DNA of 52,150 nucleotides, filler included, from Basidioascus undulatus (lineage: Eukaryota), in assembly GCA_000826855.1 (NCBI GenBank). It is 3 parts of 3 records of this genome, joined end to end, with 100 filler letters (N's around TTAATTAATTAA, not from the genome) between each part and the next. Parts side by side here need not be neighbours in the genome. Positions count along the whole stretch, not along the records: positions 17,450 to 34,751 come from JTLS01000539.1; 2 more parts are not named here. One strand, 5' to 3'. Positions 17,350 to 35,775 of this stretch are shown piece by piece; the first letter of the stretch is position 1; each line of letters starts with the position of its first letter. The position numbers and the translations under genes are program-made. The notes under the pieces were generated by a model. That model saw nothing but the letters and a program-made list of their open reading frames with translations, did no database searches and was not told the DNA's origin.

Positions 17350-17449
17350 NNNNNNNNNNNNNNNNNNNNNNNNNNNNNNNNNNNNNNNNNNNNTTAATTA
17401 ATTAANNNNNNNNNNNNNNNNNNNNNNNNNNNNNNNNNNNNNNNNNNNN
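17350..17449. other. artificial contig-joining spacer
   Basis: 44 N + TTAATTAATTAA (stops in all six frames) + 44 N, exactly 100 nt. Confidence 0.97.
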
Positions 17450-30700: not shown

Positions 30701-31252
30701 CGGCGGATAGCGAGCGCGACCCACGGGAAGCCAGGCTCCTCGCCGAGCTGTGGTTGTCGAGCGCAGCGACGTTCAGGCGATGGGGGAAAATGGAGCAGGC
30801 GCGCGGTGCGATCCAGGAGGCCGAGGCGCTCGATCCTGGTAACCCGGACGTCTGGGTACAGGTGCGTCGACCCCCGCAAGCTTTGAGCACGAACGTCGCT
30901 GATGGTCCTCCTTCCACAGCTCGGCCTCTACCACGCCGGGCAGTCCTCGCCCGAGCTTGCGCAGACGAGCTTCAACAAGGCGCTCTCGTTCGCGCCCGAC
31001 CACCCGGCAGCGCTCGTCAACCTCGCGCGCAGCTTTCTCGACTCGGGCGCGCCCGACCTCGCTGAGGGCCTCCTCGAAGCCGCCACGCGCGGCGCCGCAG
31101 CGTGGTCGTCTTCCGAGGCGTGGTACTTCCTCGGCAAGGCGTACGAGGTCCGCGGCCGCGCAAAGCGCGCGAGGGAGTGCTTCATCTACGCGCTTGAACT
31201 TGAGGACAGCAAAATCATTAGGCCGCTTGACGGCGCGGTGCCAAGGGCATGA
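27709..31252 (+). CDS. YPP1: TPR protein YPP1/TTC7 (PI4-kinase Stt4 complex subunit)
   Basis: TPR repeats (ARKALELDPQNVDAWHLLALLL), LLRLRMTLNVIVEALDGPEGA, and C-terminal LWLSSAATFRRWGK..AIQEAE..DVWVQLGLY..EAWYFLGKAYE..ALELEDSKIIRPL. Five introns. Confidence 0.85.
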
Positions 31253-31731
31253 CAGCGAGGAACATTCGGCATTTTCTTCAGGGCTCGACGTACTTCCTCT
31301 CTCTCTTTTTCGATTCTATATGCGACTCGTGTTACGCTGTCTAATGATAATGATTCCTCGGTGCCAGCTCCTGCTCTCGACGATGTGCAGATCTGCGTTG
31401 TATGCTAGTGCTGCTCTGCAATGCGAACTTGTGCGAACGCCGCATTACGGCGCTCTCAACTGGCGTCGACTGCTTGCGCGTATTGTCCCTGCTGTTCAAC
31501 ACCCATGGACGAAGAACGCGGCAGTGATCTCTGTTTCCCGCAGTACACGTAGACTTCCAGGAGCTGAACATCGTCGACAGAGTCGGACCGCCGCCGAGCC
31601 ACAGCTACGTCCCGTATGCGCTCTGGGTGCGTACCTTAGTGCATGTTTTCACGCATAATGCACCAGTGTTATTTACGCTGGCTGCTTTCCCTCATCCTCC
31701 AAGCGCATGATGGACGCCACACGCTGCATAT

Positions 31732-32470
31732 TCAGTGTGGCACAGTGCACACCAAACCTCGTCGGGTTCCAATGTTGAGGGTCCGAAACACATTGCATGC
31801 AGCCACAGTACTGTTGAAGTTTTTTCTCTGTACCGAAAGCTCTTCTACTCTGTTCCCTCGTGCCCATGACTTGTAAGGGAAGAGGATCGGCCGGGTGACG
31901 ACGTAGAAAGCCAGTCCGGTGGACTTGGACGTGAACTGTGACAGGGTGACACTCCTCTTTCAGCTTGAGCTGAGCTATAGCCTTGAGAATGTGCACCATA
32001 AGAAAGTGGAAAACTACGCACTGTAACCTTGGCGCCCTGAGGAAGGAAGACAAAGTCGCCTGCGGTCACGGTCGTGATCTCGCCGGTAGCGTGGTCCTGA
32101 GCAAGACGAACGGTCAGCACCCTCAGCAACATCAACATCGTCCGGAATGGCTTTCAATCCGTTAGTTTTTGAAAAAATACCCGCCTTAAGGGTGATCTCG
32201 CCGTCCAGCACGAACTTGCTCTCCTCGTATTCGAACACCATCGTCCGGGGCTGTTGCGAGCCAGGCGCTACTCAGTCCATTCTCCGCTCACATCCAACAA
32301 CTCAACAAAGGCTCACCTCTCCCTGCTCGATCTTGTAGAATCCCGAGGTCACGCTGGCCGGAGCCTTGGCCGGAGTGAAAGTGTGCAGGTCTCCGAGCCC
32401 GGCGGCGGGGTTGGGGAGGAAGTCGAAAGGCTTCGCCTTGGCCTCGCGGAGCGATCGGGACTGCGGACAT
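31732..32470 (-). CDS. cupin, EutQ/Cupin_3-like, with an apparent frameshift in exon 1
   Basis: LGDL..SVTSGFYKIEQGE, PRTMVFEYEESKFVLDGEITLK, DHATGEITTVTAGDFVFLPQGAKVT and FTSKSTGLAFYV. The ATG (CACCATG, 32470) is 1 nt out of frame with the cupin frame. One GC-AG intron. The 3' end is uncertain. Confidence 0.75.
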
Positions 32471-32765
32471 GGTGATGGAGGTTGAAATGGACGTTGAAAG
32501 GTGGATGGGGGCTGGGAGTGTGGAAGGCCGCAGACTGTCGAAAGAACTGGTCTTTAACTTGTTTCACTGACAATGAGAACGCGGCAGAGAAGCGCAAGCT
32601 GCTTCGGAAATTAGTGTAAGCGCTCAACACATTCCGTTCGGATAGAGGGTTTGATATCGTGTAGGTGAGCCGAGAGCGCATCGAGCGGTAGACGAAGCAT
32701 GAACAGCGTGCGAGCAGACGCGCTTCGCTTCGCAAGCGCCTAAGCACAGGCACGAGCCAATAATA

Positions 32766-33680
32766 TCATAGCTTTGCTCTCAACCGCATGAGCGCCTTCC
32801 CCAGCTCATTACGCCCTTGCCCATCTGGCCCAATACCCCAGAACGAATCAACCTGCCCCCCAGCATCAAATCAGTTACCTCGCAGGACATTCAGATGCAG
32901 CAAAGCTTATGTCGCTGTCCTCGATCAGCTCTCGCTCGCCCTTATTCTTCAGCAGATCCCACACATCGCGGTTCTGCGTGAACTTGGTCTCCAGGACCGT
33001 GTCCGTCACCCCAACATTCACGTCGAACCAGTCCGGCCACTGCAGGCGCCGAAGACGCGTCGCTTCTTGCAGCGCGGCCTGCGCGGTGGGGCACGCCCGG
33101 ATGCGCTCGGGTAGGTCGACTCGGTCTGGGAAGAATTTGTGAGCTTAGAACACTGTGTGCTTAGGAACGTAAGATGGAGATCGCGGGAGGGGCCCGGAGA
33201 CGGGAAAGCGAGGGGGCACAATGCTCGGCCATTGGGTAAATCCTCCCGTCAAACTCCATCGGCCGCGGATAGAAGTTGGTGAACCTGGAAGGAGAAGAGT
33301 GGTCAATTTGACGCTTCACAGAAGTCAAACTATGATTGTCCACTCGTAATAAGGCCTATCGCGGTGATAGAACAGCAAGGGAAGGCGCCCTTGGTCTATT
33401 GAGGGGTCAGACGGCGGCGACGCCCCCGAGGCAGAATGTGAATGAGGGGAAGAGCTGTGATGCGGCAGCGCAAAAGCCGAGGATTGCGGACCAGTTTGAA
33501 ATGGAGCAGCTTAGGAAAATCTCATGGATCGAAAGTGTTGCTGAAGCGCTCACCTGCGTTGCCCTGCCTGCCAACAACATCCATATCCGCCTCTCCATAC
33601 GCATCGCCATCCCAGAAATCAGAATGGCCCGCTTCCTCCGTTTCGTTCGCATTTCGCGGCTGGTCCTATTAAATCCGTCC
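32766..33680 (-). pseudogene. NADAR (YbiA/DUF1768) family N-glycosidase / ADP-ribosyl hydrolase-like gene, disabled
   Basis: Spliced: LLFYHRDRPYYE|FTNFYPRPMEFDGRIYPMAEH|LF*AHKF..DWFDVNV..KFTQN..RELIEDSD|VDSFWGIGPDGQGRNELGKALMRLRAKL*. There is an in-frame TAA at 33145-33147 where FQAHKF is expected, and the last donor reads ATAAGC instead of GTAAGC (32910). The 5' end is uncertain and may extend to about 33900. Confidence 0.9.
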
Positions 33681-34053
33681 CTCTTGTCCGTGAGCAAGCG
33701 ACACCATCACTCATCCGACACACACCGACGCACCGTCGGTCATTCTCGCGAAGATATGCCAGGATGCCAAGCCTGTTCGCATCGTCGAGGACGTTGTAGA
33801 CTGCCAGTGATAGCCGTGTGAAGATCCGTAGCAGTAAGTTTGCATAACCATCCGAGATGGCGATGGATCTTGTCAAGTGGAAGACGTCGCCGCTCCTTGA
33901 GGCAAATGCGGGCGGGCGAGAATCCCGGTTGATCGCATGGAAGCTCGCGGGAATGGAGAGTCTGAGCTTTGTTTGTTCCGCCGCCTCGAGCACCGCTTTC
34001 TGAATCTGCACTCCCACCACTCGCACACCATCTCTTCACGAGGGCAACAACGC

Positions 34054-34656
34054 ATGTGTGTCGACCTCTCGCAACCCAACACGCTCTGCGCCTACCCGAC
34101 CTGCAACCAGACCATTTGGCGCGACCCCGACGGCAGCCATTCATTCCGCCTTCTGCTCGGACACCCACCGGCGCAACATGGCTCAGGCTGCACCGCACAT
34201 GAACTGCATCGTGAGGCCAACCACTTCTCTAGTATGAAGTGAGCCATCTTACCCGGTAATCCGGTGGGTAGCAATGCGAGGCTCGGCCGGTCTACATTGA
34301 GAACGGATTCAGTGCGTCTGCGAGCTCTTTCCTGTTCTCGGCTCGCTCATTTGCCGCTGTTCCTCAGGCCACCCATAATGCGGTCGTACCTGCGCGATTG
34401 CCACTGCTAATGGGCAGCGGCTACCGCGCCCCGTCAATCGCCCGCGCCCGGCTCGATATGTAGGCTGGCGGGCTGCAACTCGCCAACGTTCGTGGACCGC
34501 AACGGCCTGGCGTCCGAGTACTGCTCGAACAACCACCGTCGGTGCGTCTACCATAAGATCTGGGGAAAGGTCTTGGTCTGATTGGAGGGATGAGGACAGG
34601 CTCGCGGTTCAGACGGGCAAGGCGGAGGAGTGCCTGTCTGCAAGCAGATGCCGAAG
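34054..34656 (+). pseudogene. Cys/His-repeat (zinc-finger-like) gene, putative N-terminus of a PARP-like ADP-ribosyltransferase; disabled and truncated
   Basis: Exons 34054-34210, 34272-34311, 34368-34541 and 34600-34656 give CAYPTCNQTIWRDPDGSHSAFCSDTHRR..CIQCEARPVYIENGFSHP*CGRTCA..CRLAGCNSPTFVDRNGLASEYCSNNHRRLAVQTGKAEECL.CKQMPK. Disablements are a CATT duplication at 34138-34145, a TAA at 34376-34378 and two further frameshifts. The PARP assignment is from my recall of this repeat architecture; no catalytic domain is in the window. Confidence 0.65.
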
Positions 34657-34676
34657 GTGCCTCCTCAGTCAGCCGT

Positions 34677-34751
34677 TGTTGAAAGTTTTATAGGGGTTGT
34701 ACTCGTCATTACAACGAGACAGTATACATTCTAGAAAACATTGTTTTAAAA
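34677..34751 (+). mobile_element. possible terminus of an LTR retroelement at the contig end
   Basis: Abrupt switch to AT-rich sequence starting TGTTG, 20 nt into an intron and immediately before the assembly break. Confidence 0.3.
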
Positions 34752-34851
34752 NNNNNNNNNNNNNNNNNNNNNNNNNNNNNNNNNNNNNNNNNNNNTTAAT
34801 TAATTAANNNNNNNNNNNNNNNNNNNNNNNNNNNNNNNNNNNNNNNNNNNN
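34752..34851. other. artificial contig-joining spacer
   Basis: 44 N + TTAATTAATTAA + 44 N, identical to 17350-17449. Confidence 0.97.
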
Positions 34852-35775
34852 CCTCTTCCGGCTCCTCTCCTCCCTCCGCCTCGCCCCCGCCGCCCCGATC
34901 TCCCTGCCTTCCGCCACCCGCTTCCGTGGCCAGCTCGCCCCTCGGCGCACCAAATACCGCAAGTCGCACAAGGGCCGCGTGTCGGTGCCCACGGGCGGGT
35001 CCACGAAGGGCACGACGCTTGCGTTTGGCGAATTCGGGCTGCGCGTCAAGCACGGCGTCCGCTTGACCGCCAAGATGATCCAGAGCTGCCAGGACGCGAT
35101 CAGGAGGAAGATCAAGGTCGTTAAGGGCGCGCAGCTCCATTTGCGGGTGTTTCCGGACTTGCCGGTTTGCGTGAAGGTGCTTGGTGTCTTTTGGGGATGA
35201 GGAGGAGCGGAAAGGAAGCTAAACTGGGAGTGGTGTGGGGTAGGGAAACGAGACTCGTATGGGCAAGGGGAAGGGGTCGTTTGAATACTGGGCGGTTCGG
35301 TGCGTAATGATCTCCTCTGTTTGTTCTTTCACACTCCTCTGACATGCCCGGACGGTCCAGCGTGCCTCCTAATCGCATCGTCTTCGAGATCGGCGGGGGC
35401 GGGATCCGCTCTGAAATTGCCGAAGAAGGTCCGCCGTCTTCCCTCCTCCTCTCCTCGTCCTTCTTTCCCTCCACCACCTCCTTCTCCTTTCACTCTCCCT
35501 CCATCCCCATCTCCATCTACCCTGCTTGCTTACCCTCGCTCCCCCGCCAAACAGCCCTGCGCCTGGCGCAAGTCAAGTTCCCCGTGCCCACCGAATTCGT
35601 CGTCGCCGGCACGCCGCCCAAGCTCGGCGGCGTGTTCGTTGACCCCCCGCGGTCGAACGACGGCCCCGCGGGCGGGAAGGCCGCGCTCGAGGGCGGGCAC
35701 GTGGACGTTACGGTGCTGGGGCAGGGCGAGGCGGAGAAGGTCAAGGGCGCGCAGCAGGCGGAGGCGAAGGCGTAG
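34852..35775 (+). CDS. MRPL16: mitochondrial ribosomal protein uL16m, 5'-truncated by the gap
   Basis: [63 protein letters not shown]..|[11 protein letters not shown]. Three introns. Confidence 0.95.

What the first reader, a model, noticed from the sequence alone, without database searches (positions are those of the whole stretch)
32766..34656. Head-to-head NADAR gene and putative PARP-like ADP-ribosyltransferase: a candidate fungal writer/eraser (DarT1-NADAR-like) module
Seen: a complete spliced NADAR domain on the minus strand and, divergently within a few hundred bp, a 4-exon gene of Cys/His repeats (CAYPTC..FCSDTHRR, CIQC..HPxCGRTCA, CRLAGC..YCSNNHRR, CLxCKQMPK). Established: NADAR/YbiA proteins are N-glycosidases, and in bacteria NADAR is the antitoxin that removes guanine ADP-ribosylation made by DarT1 encoded next to it. 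Recall/inference: this repeat array heads basidiomycete proteins ending in an H-Y-E PARP-like catalytic domain, which here would lie beyond the contig end. Tight divergent linkage and the loss of both genes fit a toxin-antidote pair (defence, allorecognition or selfish drive). I know of no description of such a linked pair in fungi.
Basis: partly seen in the sequence, partly recalled or inferred. Interest (0 to 1): 0.85.

Follow-up and report, generated by a model that had tools for sequence, protein, structure and literature searches.

The report
Decayed fungal NADAR and zinc-finger PARP pair
Two back-to-back broken genes at a fungal contig end are the remains of an ADP-ribose "eraser" (NADAR) and a zinc-finger PARP "writer" that also sit side by side, intact, in other mushroom-forming fungi, which suggests they work as a pair.

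Summary
A NADAR (PF08719) gene lies on the minus strand at 32766-33584. A four-exon Cys/His-repeat gene starts 469 bp away on the plus strand, at 34054.

All 15 full-length relatives of the repeat module found (15 of 15, Agaricomycetes where named) end in a PARP catalytic domain. H, Y and E are invariant in the 13 I aligned.

Linkage recurs elsewhere. In 22 of 28 metagenomic loci that encode this zinc-finger PARP, a NADAR gene ends 28-188 nt upstream on the same strand. In 11 of them a second, divergent NADAR lies further upstream. Those loci share wider synteny, so they count as one lineage, and the window, with different flanks, is a second.

The same zinc finger is also fused to NADAR domains in other eukaryotes (3 of 84 hits, one from an amoebozoan).

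In this window both genes are dead:
- **NADAR:** a stop at a conserved Gln, a GT-to-AT splice donor, and aberrant splicing in RNA-like contigs.
- **PARP gene:** three frameshifts and one stop, and it runs into a roughly 400x-copy AT-rich sequence at 34673. No catalytic domain is in the window.

The writer/eraser reading is well supported by context. Toxin-antidote behaviour and the substrate are untested.

The parts
32766..32852 (-). NADAR pseudogene, last exon (VDSFWGIGPDGQGRNELGKALMRLRAKL + TGA)
   Evidence: Pfam PF08719 E 2.6e-07. 70-85% identical to the homologous exon in the metagenome loci. Boundaries read.
32909..32910 (-). Degenerate splice donor (AT where homologues have GT) after ..ELIEDSD
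   Evidence: Read. In homologues the open frames run ..EDSPV into the intron. The intron is retained in RNA-like contig record 7 of run X3.
32911..33152 (-). NADAR pseudogene, main exon, with premature TAA at 33145-33147
   Evidence: Pfam PF08719 E 1.3e-08. The TAA aligns to the Gln of VFQA(F/L)KF in 6 of 6 homologues.
33220..33284 (-). NADAR exon encoding FTNFYPRPMEFDGRIYPMAEH
   Evidence: tblastn to loci, 48-67% identity. The acceptor at 33284/5 is used in X3 record 7.
33344..33509 (-). NADAR exon encoding ..LLFYHRDRPYYE (first strand of the domain); skipped in the one RNA-like contig seen
   Evidence: Reading frame. X3 record 7 joins 33552/4 directly to 33282/4, skipping 269 nt, and no frame of that spliced product gives an intact NADAR.
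33554..33665 (-). Transcribed exon holding the inferred NADAR start codon (ATG 33584-33582)
   Evidence: X3 record 7. The start codon is my inference from frame continuity, with no homologue support.
33734..33868 (-). Upstream transcribed 5' exon of the NADAR transcript
   Evidence: X3 record 7; the joint skipping 68 nt has CT..AC ends.
33869..34053 (.). Shared divergent promoter region. The RNA-like contigs approach to within about 160 nt of each other (33868 and 34029).
   Evidence: records 7 and 8. No CACGTG in 33500-34100. No remnant of a plus-strand NADAR at tblastn E<=10.
34054..34210 (+). Zinc-finger PARP pseudogene, exon 1: conserved start MC.D.. and finger 1 (C-x4-C...FCSDTHRR), broken by the CATT duplication at 34138-34145
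   Evidence: Alignment to P0089, P0097 and P0095 changes frame from 1 to 2. Orthologues start MC(S/P)DTQR. X3 record 8 covers 34029-34198.
34272..34311 (+). Exon 2: first half of finger 2 (QCEARPVYIENGF)
   Evidence: Matches ..C..(K/R)PVYIENG.. of the orthologues. Boundaries read.
34368..34541 (+). Exon 3: second half of finger 2 with TAA at 34376-34378 (HP*CGRTCA), a frameshift in 34400-34455, then finger 3 (CRLAGCNSPTFVDRNGLASEYCSNNHRR)
   Evidence: Finger 3 was the phmmer query. The intron directly after HRR falls at the same place in the homologues.
34600..34672 (+). Exon 4: (R)LAVQTGKAEECL / CKQMPK = start of finger 4, with one base missing at 34637/34638. This is the finger that precedes the PARP domain in orthologues.
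   Evidence: Orthologues read HRRAAVQ..ADACLLCKEMP..SDFCSKRC followed by the catalytic domain. Frames.
34673..34751 (.). AT-rich, very high-copy sequence in which the contig ends; the PARP reading frame is lost here
   Evidence: A 48-nt unitig at depth 7250 against 17.2 (X1) and 16722 against 46.6 (X2). The Logan contigs stop at 34702. GC drops to 0.26-0.37.

Best explanation
The locus is the decayed remnant of a conserved basidiomycete gene cluster. The cluster pairs a YbiA-type NADAR N-glycosidase with a roughly 375-aa protein made of four Zn-binding fingers (alternating C-x4-C..C-x3-H and C-x2-C..C-x3-C types, zf-FCS-like) followed by an H-Y-E PARP catalytic domain.

Shown: the identity of both genes, their pseudogene state here, the recurrence of NADAR next to this PARP in other fungi, and fusion of the same finger to NADAR domains elsewhere.

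Inferred: in intact relatives the PARP is the writer and the NADAR(s) the eraser of one ADP-ribose mark, and the fingers bring either enzyme to the same target. Characterised NADARs hydrolyse ADP-ribose on exocyclic amines of guanine and cytosine, not protein-linked ADP-ribose. The most likely mark is therefore base-linked ADP-ribose on DNA or RNA.

In this genome the pair was lost together. The PARP gene has four disabling lesions and is cut off by a high-copy AT-rich sequence. The NADAR gene has a nonsense codon and a dead splice donor, and is still transcribed but mis-spliced.

My odds: identity and decay about 0.9; a true functional writer/eraser coupling about 0.55; a nucleic-acid base as the substrate about 0.35.
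For: - **NADAR identity.** Pfam NADAR on two minus-strand exons. The nearest solved protein for an intact homologue is E. coli YbiA 2b3w, and the Glu of ..LIEDS aligns to LVEHT. Passages of PMC11543638 give that Glu as the YbiA-subfamily signature.
- **The finger and its partners.** phmmer with finger 3 gave 84 hits. Pfam on all 84 found PARP in 6 and NADAR in 3. One NADAR fusion is from Soliformovum and one PARP fusion from Pelomyxa.
- **Full-length relatives.** A profile of the finger module, searched among longer proteins, gave 15 of 15 with PF00644. H243, Y294 and E358 are invariant in 13 of 13. PDB sequence hits are PARP4, PARP3 and tankyrase. The 19 best fold matches are all PARP-family domains, best Z 10.0, and the next row is Z 2.6, although the model is weak at pLDDT 59.6.
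- **The window gene is the PARP type.** It matches these orthologues from Met1 to the fourth finger.
- **Adjacency.** NADAR lies directly upstream in 22 of 28 loci, or 13 of 16 clusters at 90% nt identity, and a second divergent NADAR lies in 11 of 28. The NADAR stop is 28-188 nt before the PARP ATG. The window keeps the adjacency with none of those loci's flanking genes.
- **Lesions.**, unchanged in contigs of two DNA runs.
- **NADAR chemistry.** Guanine-N2 and cytidine ADP-ribose hydrolysis, including by YbiA-type and eukaryotic NADARs: PMC11543638 (passages), PMC12945103 (abstract) and bioRxiv 2026.03.31.715305 (passages).
Against: - **No catalytic domain here.** It is absent from the window (tblastn of all 84 hits), so 'PARP' for this copy rests on orthology of the N-terminal 170 residues.
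- **One syntenic clade.** The loci long enough to show their flanks share synteny: a BRE4-like transporter upstream in L007, L013, L017 and L023, a gluconokinase-like gene downstream in 12 loci, and KRE6 in L004, L013 and L023. Their NADARs are very close to each other (median branch 0.03, against 1.83 for the window). Their adjacency may be inherited gene order. A housekeeping-looking kinase is just as constantly adjacent. Independent lineages with adjacency number two.
- **A counterexample.** L002 has 974 nt upstream of its PARP gene with a different ORF and no NADAR.
- **NADAR can be housekeeping.** YbiA-type NADARs also act on riboflavin intermediates (PMC11543638 passages), which needs no PARP.
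- **No biochemistry.** None exists for this PARP family. The one PARP-made base mark tested in the preprint (guanine-N1) was not removed by NADAR.
- **Fusions are few.** ZnF-NADAR fusions are 3 of 84, and two of them have no known organism.
- **Thin RNA evidence.** The RNA-like evidence is single Logan contigs from one run whose type is only guessed.
Confidence: 0.55

Rival explanations
1. Neighbours by descent only. The NADAR is a housekeeping N-glycosidase (riboflavin-intermediate clean-up) and the zinc-finger PARP modifies proteins. They sit together through inherited gene order, and both decayed here because the whole contig end is degenerating.
For: The loci long enough to show flanks share broader synteny that includes a gluconokinase-like gene and KRE6. 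GC falls from about 0.70 to about 0.55 across 31.2-34.7 kb. The small neighbouring gene's only ATG is out of frame with its long ORF. L002 lacks an upstream NADAR. The housekeeping NADAR role is documented (PMC11543638 passages).
Against: The window keeps the NADAR-PARP adjacency while sharing none of the other flanking genes. Two NADAR paralogues flank the PARP start in 11 loci. The same finger is fused to NADAR in three other proteins, one from an amoebozoan, which is hard to explain without a shared target. The spacing of 28-188 nt is very tight.
Confidence: 0.27
2. Toxin-antidote, defence or allorecognition module. The PARP is growth-inhibitory (for example by ADP-ribosylating DNA or RNA), the adjacent NADAR(s) neutralise it enzymatically as in DarT1-NADAR, and the pair behaves as a conflict or selfish element that is gained and lost as a unit.
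For: An ART-NADAR gene pair is the layout of DarTG1 (PMC11543638 passages). There is antidote redundancy, with two NADARs per PARP in 11 loci. Both genes were lost here. PARP paralogues occur in tandem in Sparassis (consecutive locus tags), and one Daedalea gene model holds two units.
Against: No toxicity data exist. In the long loci the cluster sits in a stable syntenic block, not in a variable or mobile context. The NADAR is YbiA-type, not the DarT1-associated type. The PARP has its own conserved CACGTG element and is not in an operon. No NLR, HET or other allorecognition domains were seen in the flanks scanned.
Confidence: 0.15
3. The genes are intact in the organism, and the stops and frameshifts are assembly or sequencing errors.
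For: The locus is at a contig end in a draft assembly.
Against: There are no letter or indel differences in contigs of two DNA runs from two studies at depths 17 and 47, although either run may be the source. The lesions include two substitutions to TAA and a GT-to-AT change, not only homopolymer indels. The RNA-like contig retains the intron with the dead donor.
Confidence: 0.03

Closest known systems
DarT1-NADAR (DarTG1) toxin-antitoxin system of bacteria
   Same: A diphtheria-toxin/PARP-class ADP-ribosyltransferase gene lies next to a NADAR hydrolase gene. There the NADAR removes guanine-N2 ADP-ribose made by the neighbour (PMC11543638, passages).
   Different: The pair here is eukaryotic with spliced genes, not an operon. 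The transferase is a Pfam PARP (PF00644) with H-Y-E and four N-terminal zinc fingers, not a DarT. The NADAR is YbiA-type (Glu) rather than the DarT1-associated type (Asp). Relatives often have two NADAR genes. Toxicity and substrate are unknown.
Fungal PARP families described so far (fPARP1: BRCT/WGR-PARP; fPARP2: PARP-Ubc)
   Same: Fungal proteins with a PARP catalytic domain.
   Different: These are about 375 aa with no WGR, BRCT, HD or UBC domain found by Pfam. They have four zf-FCS-like fingers instead. The passages I read of the 2026 review (PMC13720257), the 2026 preprint on 534 fungal genomes and Citarelli 2010 do not mention this architecture. [quoted passage not shown]
Macrodomain-bearing PARPs (PARP9/14/15), as recalled and from the title of reference 13 cited in PMC11125620
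   Same: A writer and an eraser of ADP-ribosylation are kept physically linked.
   Different: There the link is a fusion with macrodomains in animals. Here it is gene adjacency with NADAR, plus a targeting finger shared between separate writer and eraser proteins.
zf-FCS / MYM-type zinc finger (PF06467)
   Same: C-x2-C ... (F/Y)C(S/G)xxC spacing. 5 of the 84 finger-bearing hits give weak PF06467 matches, 2 of them above the cut-off. The AF2 model gives short strands followed by a helix for each finger.
   Different: The window's own fingers give no Pfam hit at E<=1. Half of the fingers end C-x3-H with a conserved PGC..P.(W/Y)(V/R)D..G motif that PF06467 does not describe.

Membership tests
NADAR (PF08719), YbiA subfamily | Sequence match to the NADAR profile | tested here: met
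   Exon 32875-33144 scores 35.7 bits (cut-off 35.1) and the last exon 31.5 bits. Intact homologues in the loci score 50-93 bits.
NADAR (PF08719), YbiA subfamily | Conserved Glu (YbiA type) rather than Asp (DarT1-associated BC4488 type) or His (phage type), as stated in PMC11543638 | tested here: met
   ..RELIEDS.. in the window. The homologue's ..reliedsp aligns to YbiA ..klveht. The rule is taken from passages.
NADAR (PF08719), YbiA subfamily | Intact, translatable gene | tested here: not met
   TAA at 33145-33147 in place of the conserved Gln, an AT donor at 32910-32909, and an exon skipped plus introns retained in the RNA-like contig.
PARP / ARTD catalytic family (PF00644) | Catalytic domain with the H-Y-E triad in this gene | not testable with these tools
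   The contig ends at or after finger 4. No PARP-like segment lies elsewhere in the window. No genome is held.
PARP / ARTD catalytic family (PF00644) | Orthologues of the N-terminal module carry the domain and the triad | tested here: met
   15 of 15 carry PF00644. H243, Y294 and E358 are invariant in 13 of 13. Y and E align to PARP4 GIY and (D/E)E. Fold matches to PARP domains have best Z 10.0.
DarT1-NADAR (DarTG1) toxin-antitoxin | DarT-type transferase | tested here: not met
   The orthologues match Pfam PARP and solved PARP4, PARP3 and tankyrase. No DarT family was reported.
DarT1-NADAR (DarTG1) toxin-antitoxin | Transferase toxic, and rescued by the adjacent NADAR | not testable with these tools
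   Needs expression assays.
DarT1-NADAR (DarTG1) toxin-antitoxin | Conserved adjacency of the transferase and NADAR genes | tested here: met
   22 of 28 loci, or 13 of 16 sequence clusters, plus the window. These amount to only two clearly independent lineages.
zf-FCS / MYM zinc finger (PF06467) | Profile match of the window's fingers | tested here: not met
   No family at E<=1 for the window's finger ORFs except a chance-level CpG_bind_C hit. Weak matches appear only in 5 of 84 relatives.

The most novel reading that the evidence does not exclude
Basidiomycete fungi and amoebozoans carry a dedicated, reversible nucleobase ADP-ribosylation system. A small H-Y-E PARP writes ADP-ribose onto guanine or cytosine amines of DNA or RNA. 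YbiA-type NADARs encoded beside it erase the mark. A previously undescribed C-x4-C/C-x3-H zinc finger, found on both writer and eraser, targets both to the same nucleic acid. The system behaves as a dispensable, conflict-type (toxin-antidote or defence) module that can be lost as a unit, as in this window.
Probability: 0.25. Interest if true: 0.85.

Novelty: new variant of a known kind. Interest (0 to 1): 0.62.

Why it matters
NADAR enzymes are the known erasers of base-linked ADP-ribose. Outside bacterial DarT1-NADAR, their physiological writers in eukaryotes are unknown. [quoted passage not shown]

A conserved PARP-NADAR gene cluster would give that question a concrete pair of proteins to test, especially with a zinc finger shared by writer and eraser proteins from fungi to amoebae. 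It would also add a third, undescribed PARP architecture to the fungal repertoire.

The window's own copy is only a relic. Its value is as the pointer to the intact clusters, and as a natural example of both genes being lost together.

Tried and rejected
- **Word-index protein searches.** Searches with the single finger and with the NADAR exon found nothing. Only the exhaustive phmmer and the profile search worked.
- **ESM Atlas.** No usable hit for the finger ORF or for residues 1-170 of P0089.
- **Own genome.** None is held, so the rest of the PARP gene could not be sought.
- **Earlier findings.** Nothing by place or by words.
- **RNA evidence.** No RNA holder was listed among the sequencing runs. 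Run X3 is labelled 'DNA?', but all five of its joints have GT..AG ends on the minus strand, so I treated it as RNA-like. X3 has no cover over 34276-34751.
- **AF2 model of P0089.** It was poor from 13 sequences (pLDDT 59.6; catalytic core 236-310 under 50). I used it only for the domain-level fold match and did not interpret the fingers' fold from the search.
- **NADAR tree.** It could not place the window's copy: branch length 1.83, no starred clade. I cannot say whether it is orthologous to the divergent or to the tandem NADAR of the other loci.
- **Plus-strand NADAR remnant between the two genes.** None at tblastn E<=10.
- **Synteny of the window's flanks.** The small spliced gene and the TPR gene gave no hits against the loci.
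- **Locus-tag search for neighbours.** Searching for the neighbours of the Serendipita and Sparassis genes found 0 papers.
- **Complex prediction.** Not run, because I do not claim the proteins bind.
- **'The repeats belong to the NADAR protein through a local inversion'.** Considered and rejected. The gene has the conserved PARP-type start and fourth finger.
Full report
**What is in the window**

The window is three contigs joined by N44 + TTAATTAATTAA + N44 linkers. N runs lie at 17350-17449 and 34752-34851. The finding lies at the right-hand end of the middle contig (17450-34751). GC is about 0.70 over the clearly coding genes at 29.5-31.1 kb. It falls to about 0.52-0.63 from 31.2 kb to 34.6 kb, and to 0.26-0.37 in the last 100 nt.

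**The NADAR gene**

Pfam finds PF08719 on two minus-strand exons. One is 32875-33144 (E 1.3e-08, 35.7 bits against a cut-off of 35.1). The other is 32766-32870 (E 2.6e-07). From the minus strand I built this model:
- ATG at 33584, first exon ending at 33554;
- exon 33509-33344 (..LLFYHRDRPYYE);
- exon 33284-33220 (FTNFYPRPMEFDGRIYPMAEH);
- exon 33152-32911;
- last exon 32852-32766.

The start codon is my inference.

The gene is not intact. TAA at 33145-33147 aligns to the Gln of VFQA(F/L)KF in 6 of 6 intact homologues from metagenome loci. After ..ELIEDSD the intron begins AT (32910-32909), where the homologues' frames run ..EDSPV into a GT intron.

The nearest solved relative of an intact homologue is E. 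coli YbiA (2b3w, E 7.6e-09). The Glu of ..LIEDS aligns to YbiA's LVEHT. Passages of PMC11543638 give that Glu as the mark of the YbiA subfamily, against Asp in the DarT1-associated subfamily.

**The repeat gene**

It starts at ATG 34054, which is 469 nt from the NADAR ATG and on the other strand. Exons are 34054-34210, 34272-34311, 34368-34541 and 34600 onward, with GT..AG introns of 61, 56 and 58 nt.

Relative to homologues the frame is broken four times:
- a tandem CATT duplication at 34138-34145, inside finger 1;
- TAA at 34376-34378, where relatives have F or Y (HP*CGRTCA);
- a frame change between 34400 and 34455;
- one missing base at 34637/34638, inside CL.CKQMPK.

**Are the lesions real?**

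Contigs of two DNA runs from two studies (X1 at depth 17, X2 at depth 47) lie on 31000-34702 with no other letters and no indels. Either run may be the source of the assembly, so this is not fully independent. It does argue against simple consensus errors.

**RNA-like evidence**

A third run, X3, comes from the same sample as X2 and its type is only guessed. It behaves like cDNA: all five of its joints have CT..AC ends, which is GT..AG on the minus strand.

Its 756-nt contig covers 32776-33282 without a break, so both downstream NADAR introns are retained. It then jumps 269 nt to 33552-33664, skipping the LLFYHRDRPYYE exon, and jumps 68 nt to 33733-33868. No frame of that product gives an intact NADAR.

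Another X3 contig covers 34029-34198, the first exon of the repeat gene. So both relics are transcribed, from start regions about 160 nt apart.

**The contig end**

From 34673 the sequence belongs to a 48-nt unitig at depth 7250 (X1) and 16722 (X2). That is about 400 times the flanking depth, and the Logan contigs stop at 34702. Homology to the orthologues' fourth finger fades just there. Whether this is an organellar or repeat insertion into the gene or an assembly junction cannot be told. No genome is held.

**What the repeat gene is**

Word-index searches failed. An exhaustive phmmer with finger 3 (34 aa, window 34441-34542) against 1.84 billion representatives gave 84 proteins at E<=0.001.

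Pfam on all 84 gave:

| Family | Proteins |
|---|---|
| PARP PF00644 | 6 |
| NADAR PF08719 | 3 |
| weak zf-FCS PF06467 | 5 (2 above cut-off) |
| RING | 3 |
| NHL (probably spurious) | 2 |
| no family | 57 |

Several short hits (P0033, P0036, P0007, P0066 and others) have the same start (MC.DT..). They also have the same finger order and the same break right after ..HRR, where the window has an intron.

A profile of these, searched among longer proteins, returned 15 proteins of 369-728 aa. All 15 carry PF00644. The 9 that carry a species name are all Agaricomycetes: Daedalea, Lactarius, Multifurca, Gloeopeniophorella, Lactifluus and Sparassis.

In the orthologues ..HRRAAVQ..ADACLLCKEMP..SDFCSKRC leads straight into the catalytic domain. 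The window reads ..HRR|LAVQTGKAEECL.CKQMPK. The window gene is therefore the N-terminal 170 residues of this family.

In an alignment of 13 members, H243 (RRFHGT), Y294 (GIYTS) and E358 (NYDE) are invariant. The Y and E stretches align to PARP4 (E 4.7e-10). A weak AF2 model (pLDDT 59.6) still gives PARP-family domains as its 19 best fold matches (tankyrase Z 10.0, rmsd 4.0, 166 aligned), with the next row at Z 2.6.

No PARP-like segment exists elsewhere in the window.

**Is the linkage conserved?**

A scan of metagenome contigs with the 13-protein alignment gave 28 loci.

*Tandem NADAR.* tblastn with the window's NADAR exons finds a NADAR gene directly upstream of the PARP gene, on the same strand, in 22 of 28 loci. 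Of the six without:
- L003, L005, L008 and L018 have only 13-133 nt of upstream sequence;
- L015 starts inside the gene;
- L002 has 974 nt upstream with a different ORF of no known family.

The tandem NADAR has its own stop, and the PARP ATG follows 28-188 nt later (22 loci).

*Divergent NADAR.* In 11 of 28 loci a second NADAR lies further upstream on the opposite strand. This covers every locus with at least about 820 nt of sequence before the tandem copy (L010 and longer). The layout is NADAR(-) <> NADAR(+) > ZnF-PARP(+).

*How independent is this?*
- The 28 loci collapse to 16 clusters at 90% nt identity, and 13 of the 16 show the tandem NADAR.
- The four long loci share the same wider gene order: BRE4-like transporter, NADAR, NADAR, PARP, gluconokinase-like AAA_33/SKI gene, KRE6.
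- The kinase follows the PARP in 12 loci.
- The loci's NADARs are very close to each other, with a median end branch of 0.03, against 1.83 for the window.

So these loci are one clade with inherited synteny, and a housekeeping-looking kinase is as faithful a neighbour as NADAR. What adds weight is the window itself. It shares none of those flanks, lacks the tandem NADAR (no remnant at E<=10), and yet keeps a NADAR head-to-head with the PARP gene.

**A second line of evidence: shared fingers**

Three of the 84 finger proteins are NADAR fusions: P0001 (NADAR followed by four fingers), P0043 and P0067.
- P0043 is from the amoebozoan Soliformovum irregulare, and a 563-aa isoform also carries NADAR.
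- A finger-PARP (P0037) is from the amoebozoan Pelomyxa.
- Another finger-PARP cluster includes Serendipita indica.

The same finger thus decorates writers and erasers in distant eukaryotes. This is the classical signature of two activities meeting on one target.

**How it most likely works**

*Shown:* gene identities, decay, adjacency and the fusions.

*Established elsewhere:* NADARs hydrolyse ADP-ribose from guanine N2 and serve as the antidote of DarT1, and eukaryotic and YbiA-type members share the activity (PMC11543638, passages). Some also remove cytidine ADP-ribose (PMC12945103, abstract). A NADAR did not remove PARP15-made guanine-N1 ADP-ribose (bioRxiv 2026.03.31.715305, passages).

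*Inferred:* in intact clusters the zinc-finger PARP writes a mark, most plausibly on a nucleobase amine, that the neighbouring NADARs erase. The fingers provide targeting.

The tight tandem spacing could allow co-transcription. Polycistronic transcripts are reported in Agaricomycetes (PMC4503453, search listing and start of the abstract only). However, a conserved CACGTG sits 49-97 nt before the PARP ATG in 20 of 22 spacers, which suggests the PARP has its own regulated promoter.

The toxin-antidote, defence or allorecognition reading is compatible with the two NADARs per PARP and with the joint loss here. It has no direct support, and the stable synteny of the cluster argues mildly against a mobile or highly polymorphic element.

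**Comparison with the known, and novelty**

The closest system by logic is bacterial DarT1-NADAR. This pair fails membership on the transferase type and the NADAR subtype, and it is not an operon.

The fungal PARP literature I could read recognises PARP1-like and PARP-Ubc types and does not mention this architecture or a NADAR neighbour. That literature was the 2026 review PMC13720257, a 2026 preprint on 534 genomes, and Citarelli 2010, all read as passages. [quoted passage not shown]

My searches for a description found none. De Souza and Aravind's 2012 NADAR paper, cited, was not read, and supplements were not consulted. A prior mention cannot be excluded.

I rate it a new variant of a known kind: an ART-NADAR writer/eraser pair, here eukaryotic and PARP-based with a shared finger.

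**Verdict**

The linkage idea gains real but not yet broad support. The window's own copy is a transcribed, jointly decayed relic. Interest is 0.62.

Noticed in passing
window 17350-17449 and 34752-34851: The window is three separate contigs joined by N44 + TTAATTAATTAA + N44 linkers. Features on either side of these linkers are not physically linked.
   Followed up: yes
window 34673-34751: The contig ends in an AT-rich sequence present at about 400 times the nuclear depth in two DNA runs (7250 against 17, and 16722 against 47). Other copies continue differently to the left (an 18-nt loose end). It could be organellar DNA, a very high-copy repeat or a mis-join.
   Followed up: partly
window 31842-32533 (-): A small gene just downstream of the NADAR relic is spliced at three GT..AG introns in an RNA-like contig and has a long open frame (..KPFDFLPNPAAGLGDLHTF..VFEYEESKFVLDGEITLK..). 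Its only nearby ATG is one base out of frame. Its exon ORFs give no Pfam family. It may be a third damaged gene.
   Followed up: partly
window 31200-34650: GC drops from about 0.70 in the upstream TPR-repeat gene to about 0.52-0.63 across the stretch that holds the three damaged or suspect genes. I did not test for a C-to-T / G-to-A bias such as repeat-induced point mutation.
   Followed up: no
L004-L028, spacer between the tandem NADAR stop and the PARP ATG (e.g. L023 9825-10000): The palindrome CACGTG lies 49-97 nt before the PARP start codon in 20 of 22 loci, against one per 2.3 kb over all loci. The loci are related, so this is partly shared ancestry. There is none in the window's 33500-34100.
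   Followed up: partly
L013 11364-12290, L023 12199-12831 and 10 other loci: A gluconokinase-like P-loop gene (Pfam AAA_33 / SKI) follows the PARP gene in 12 loci, followed by KRE6 in L004, L013 and L023. A BRE4/ArAE-type transporter lies upstream in L007, L013, L017 and L023. This is one conserved syntenic block.
   Followed up: partly
P0085 (Daedalea quercina, 728 aa); P0095 and P0098 (Sparassis crispa): The Daedalea model contains two complete finger-PARP units in one protein. The two Sparassis proteins have consecutive locus tags on one contig. So the PARP gene is tandemly duplicated in some Polyporales.
   Followed up: no
P0056, P0065, P0082, P0052, P0057 (hits): The same finger also occurs with C-terminal RING fingers (3 proteins, one of them also with a CCCH finger), a SAM domain and ankyrin repeats. 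It looks like a general targeting module beyond ADP-ribosylation enzymes.
   Followed up: no
window 34852-35775 (+), next contig: A spliced gene for a ribosomal protein of the L16p/L10e family (PF00252, E 4.2e-19) starts the third contig. It is unrelated to the finding.
   Followed up: no
L002 2-859 (+): In this locus the PARP gene is an uninterrupted ORF (no introns). It is preceded by a 285-aa Pro/Ser-rich ORF with no Pfam family instead of a NADAR. It is either a transcript-derived contig or a lineage without the tandem NADAR.
   Followed up: partly
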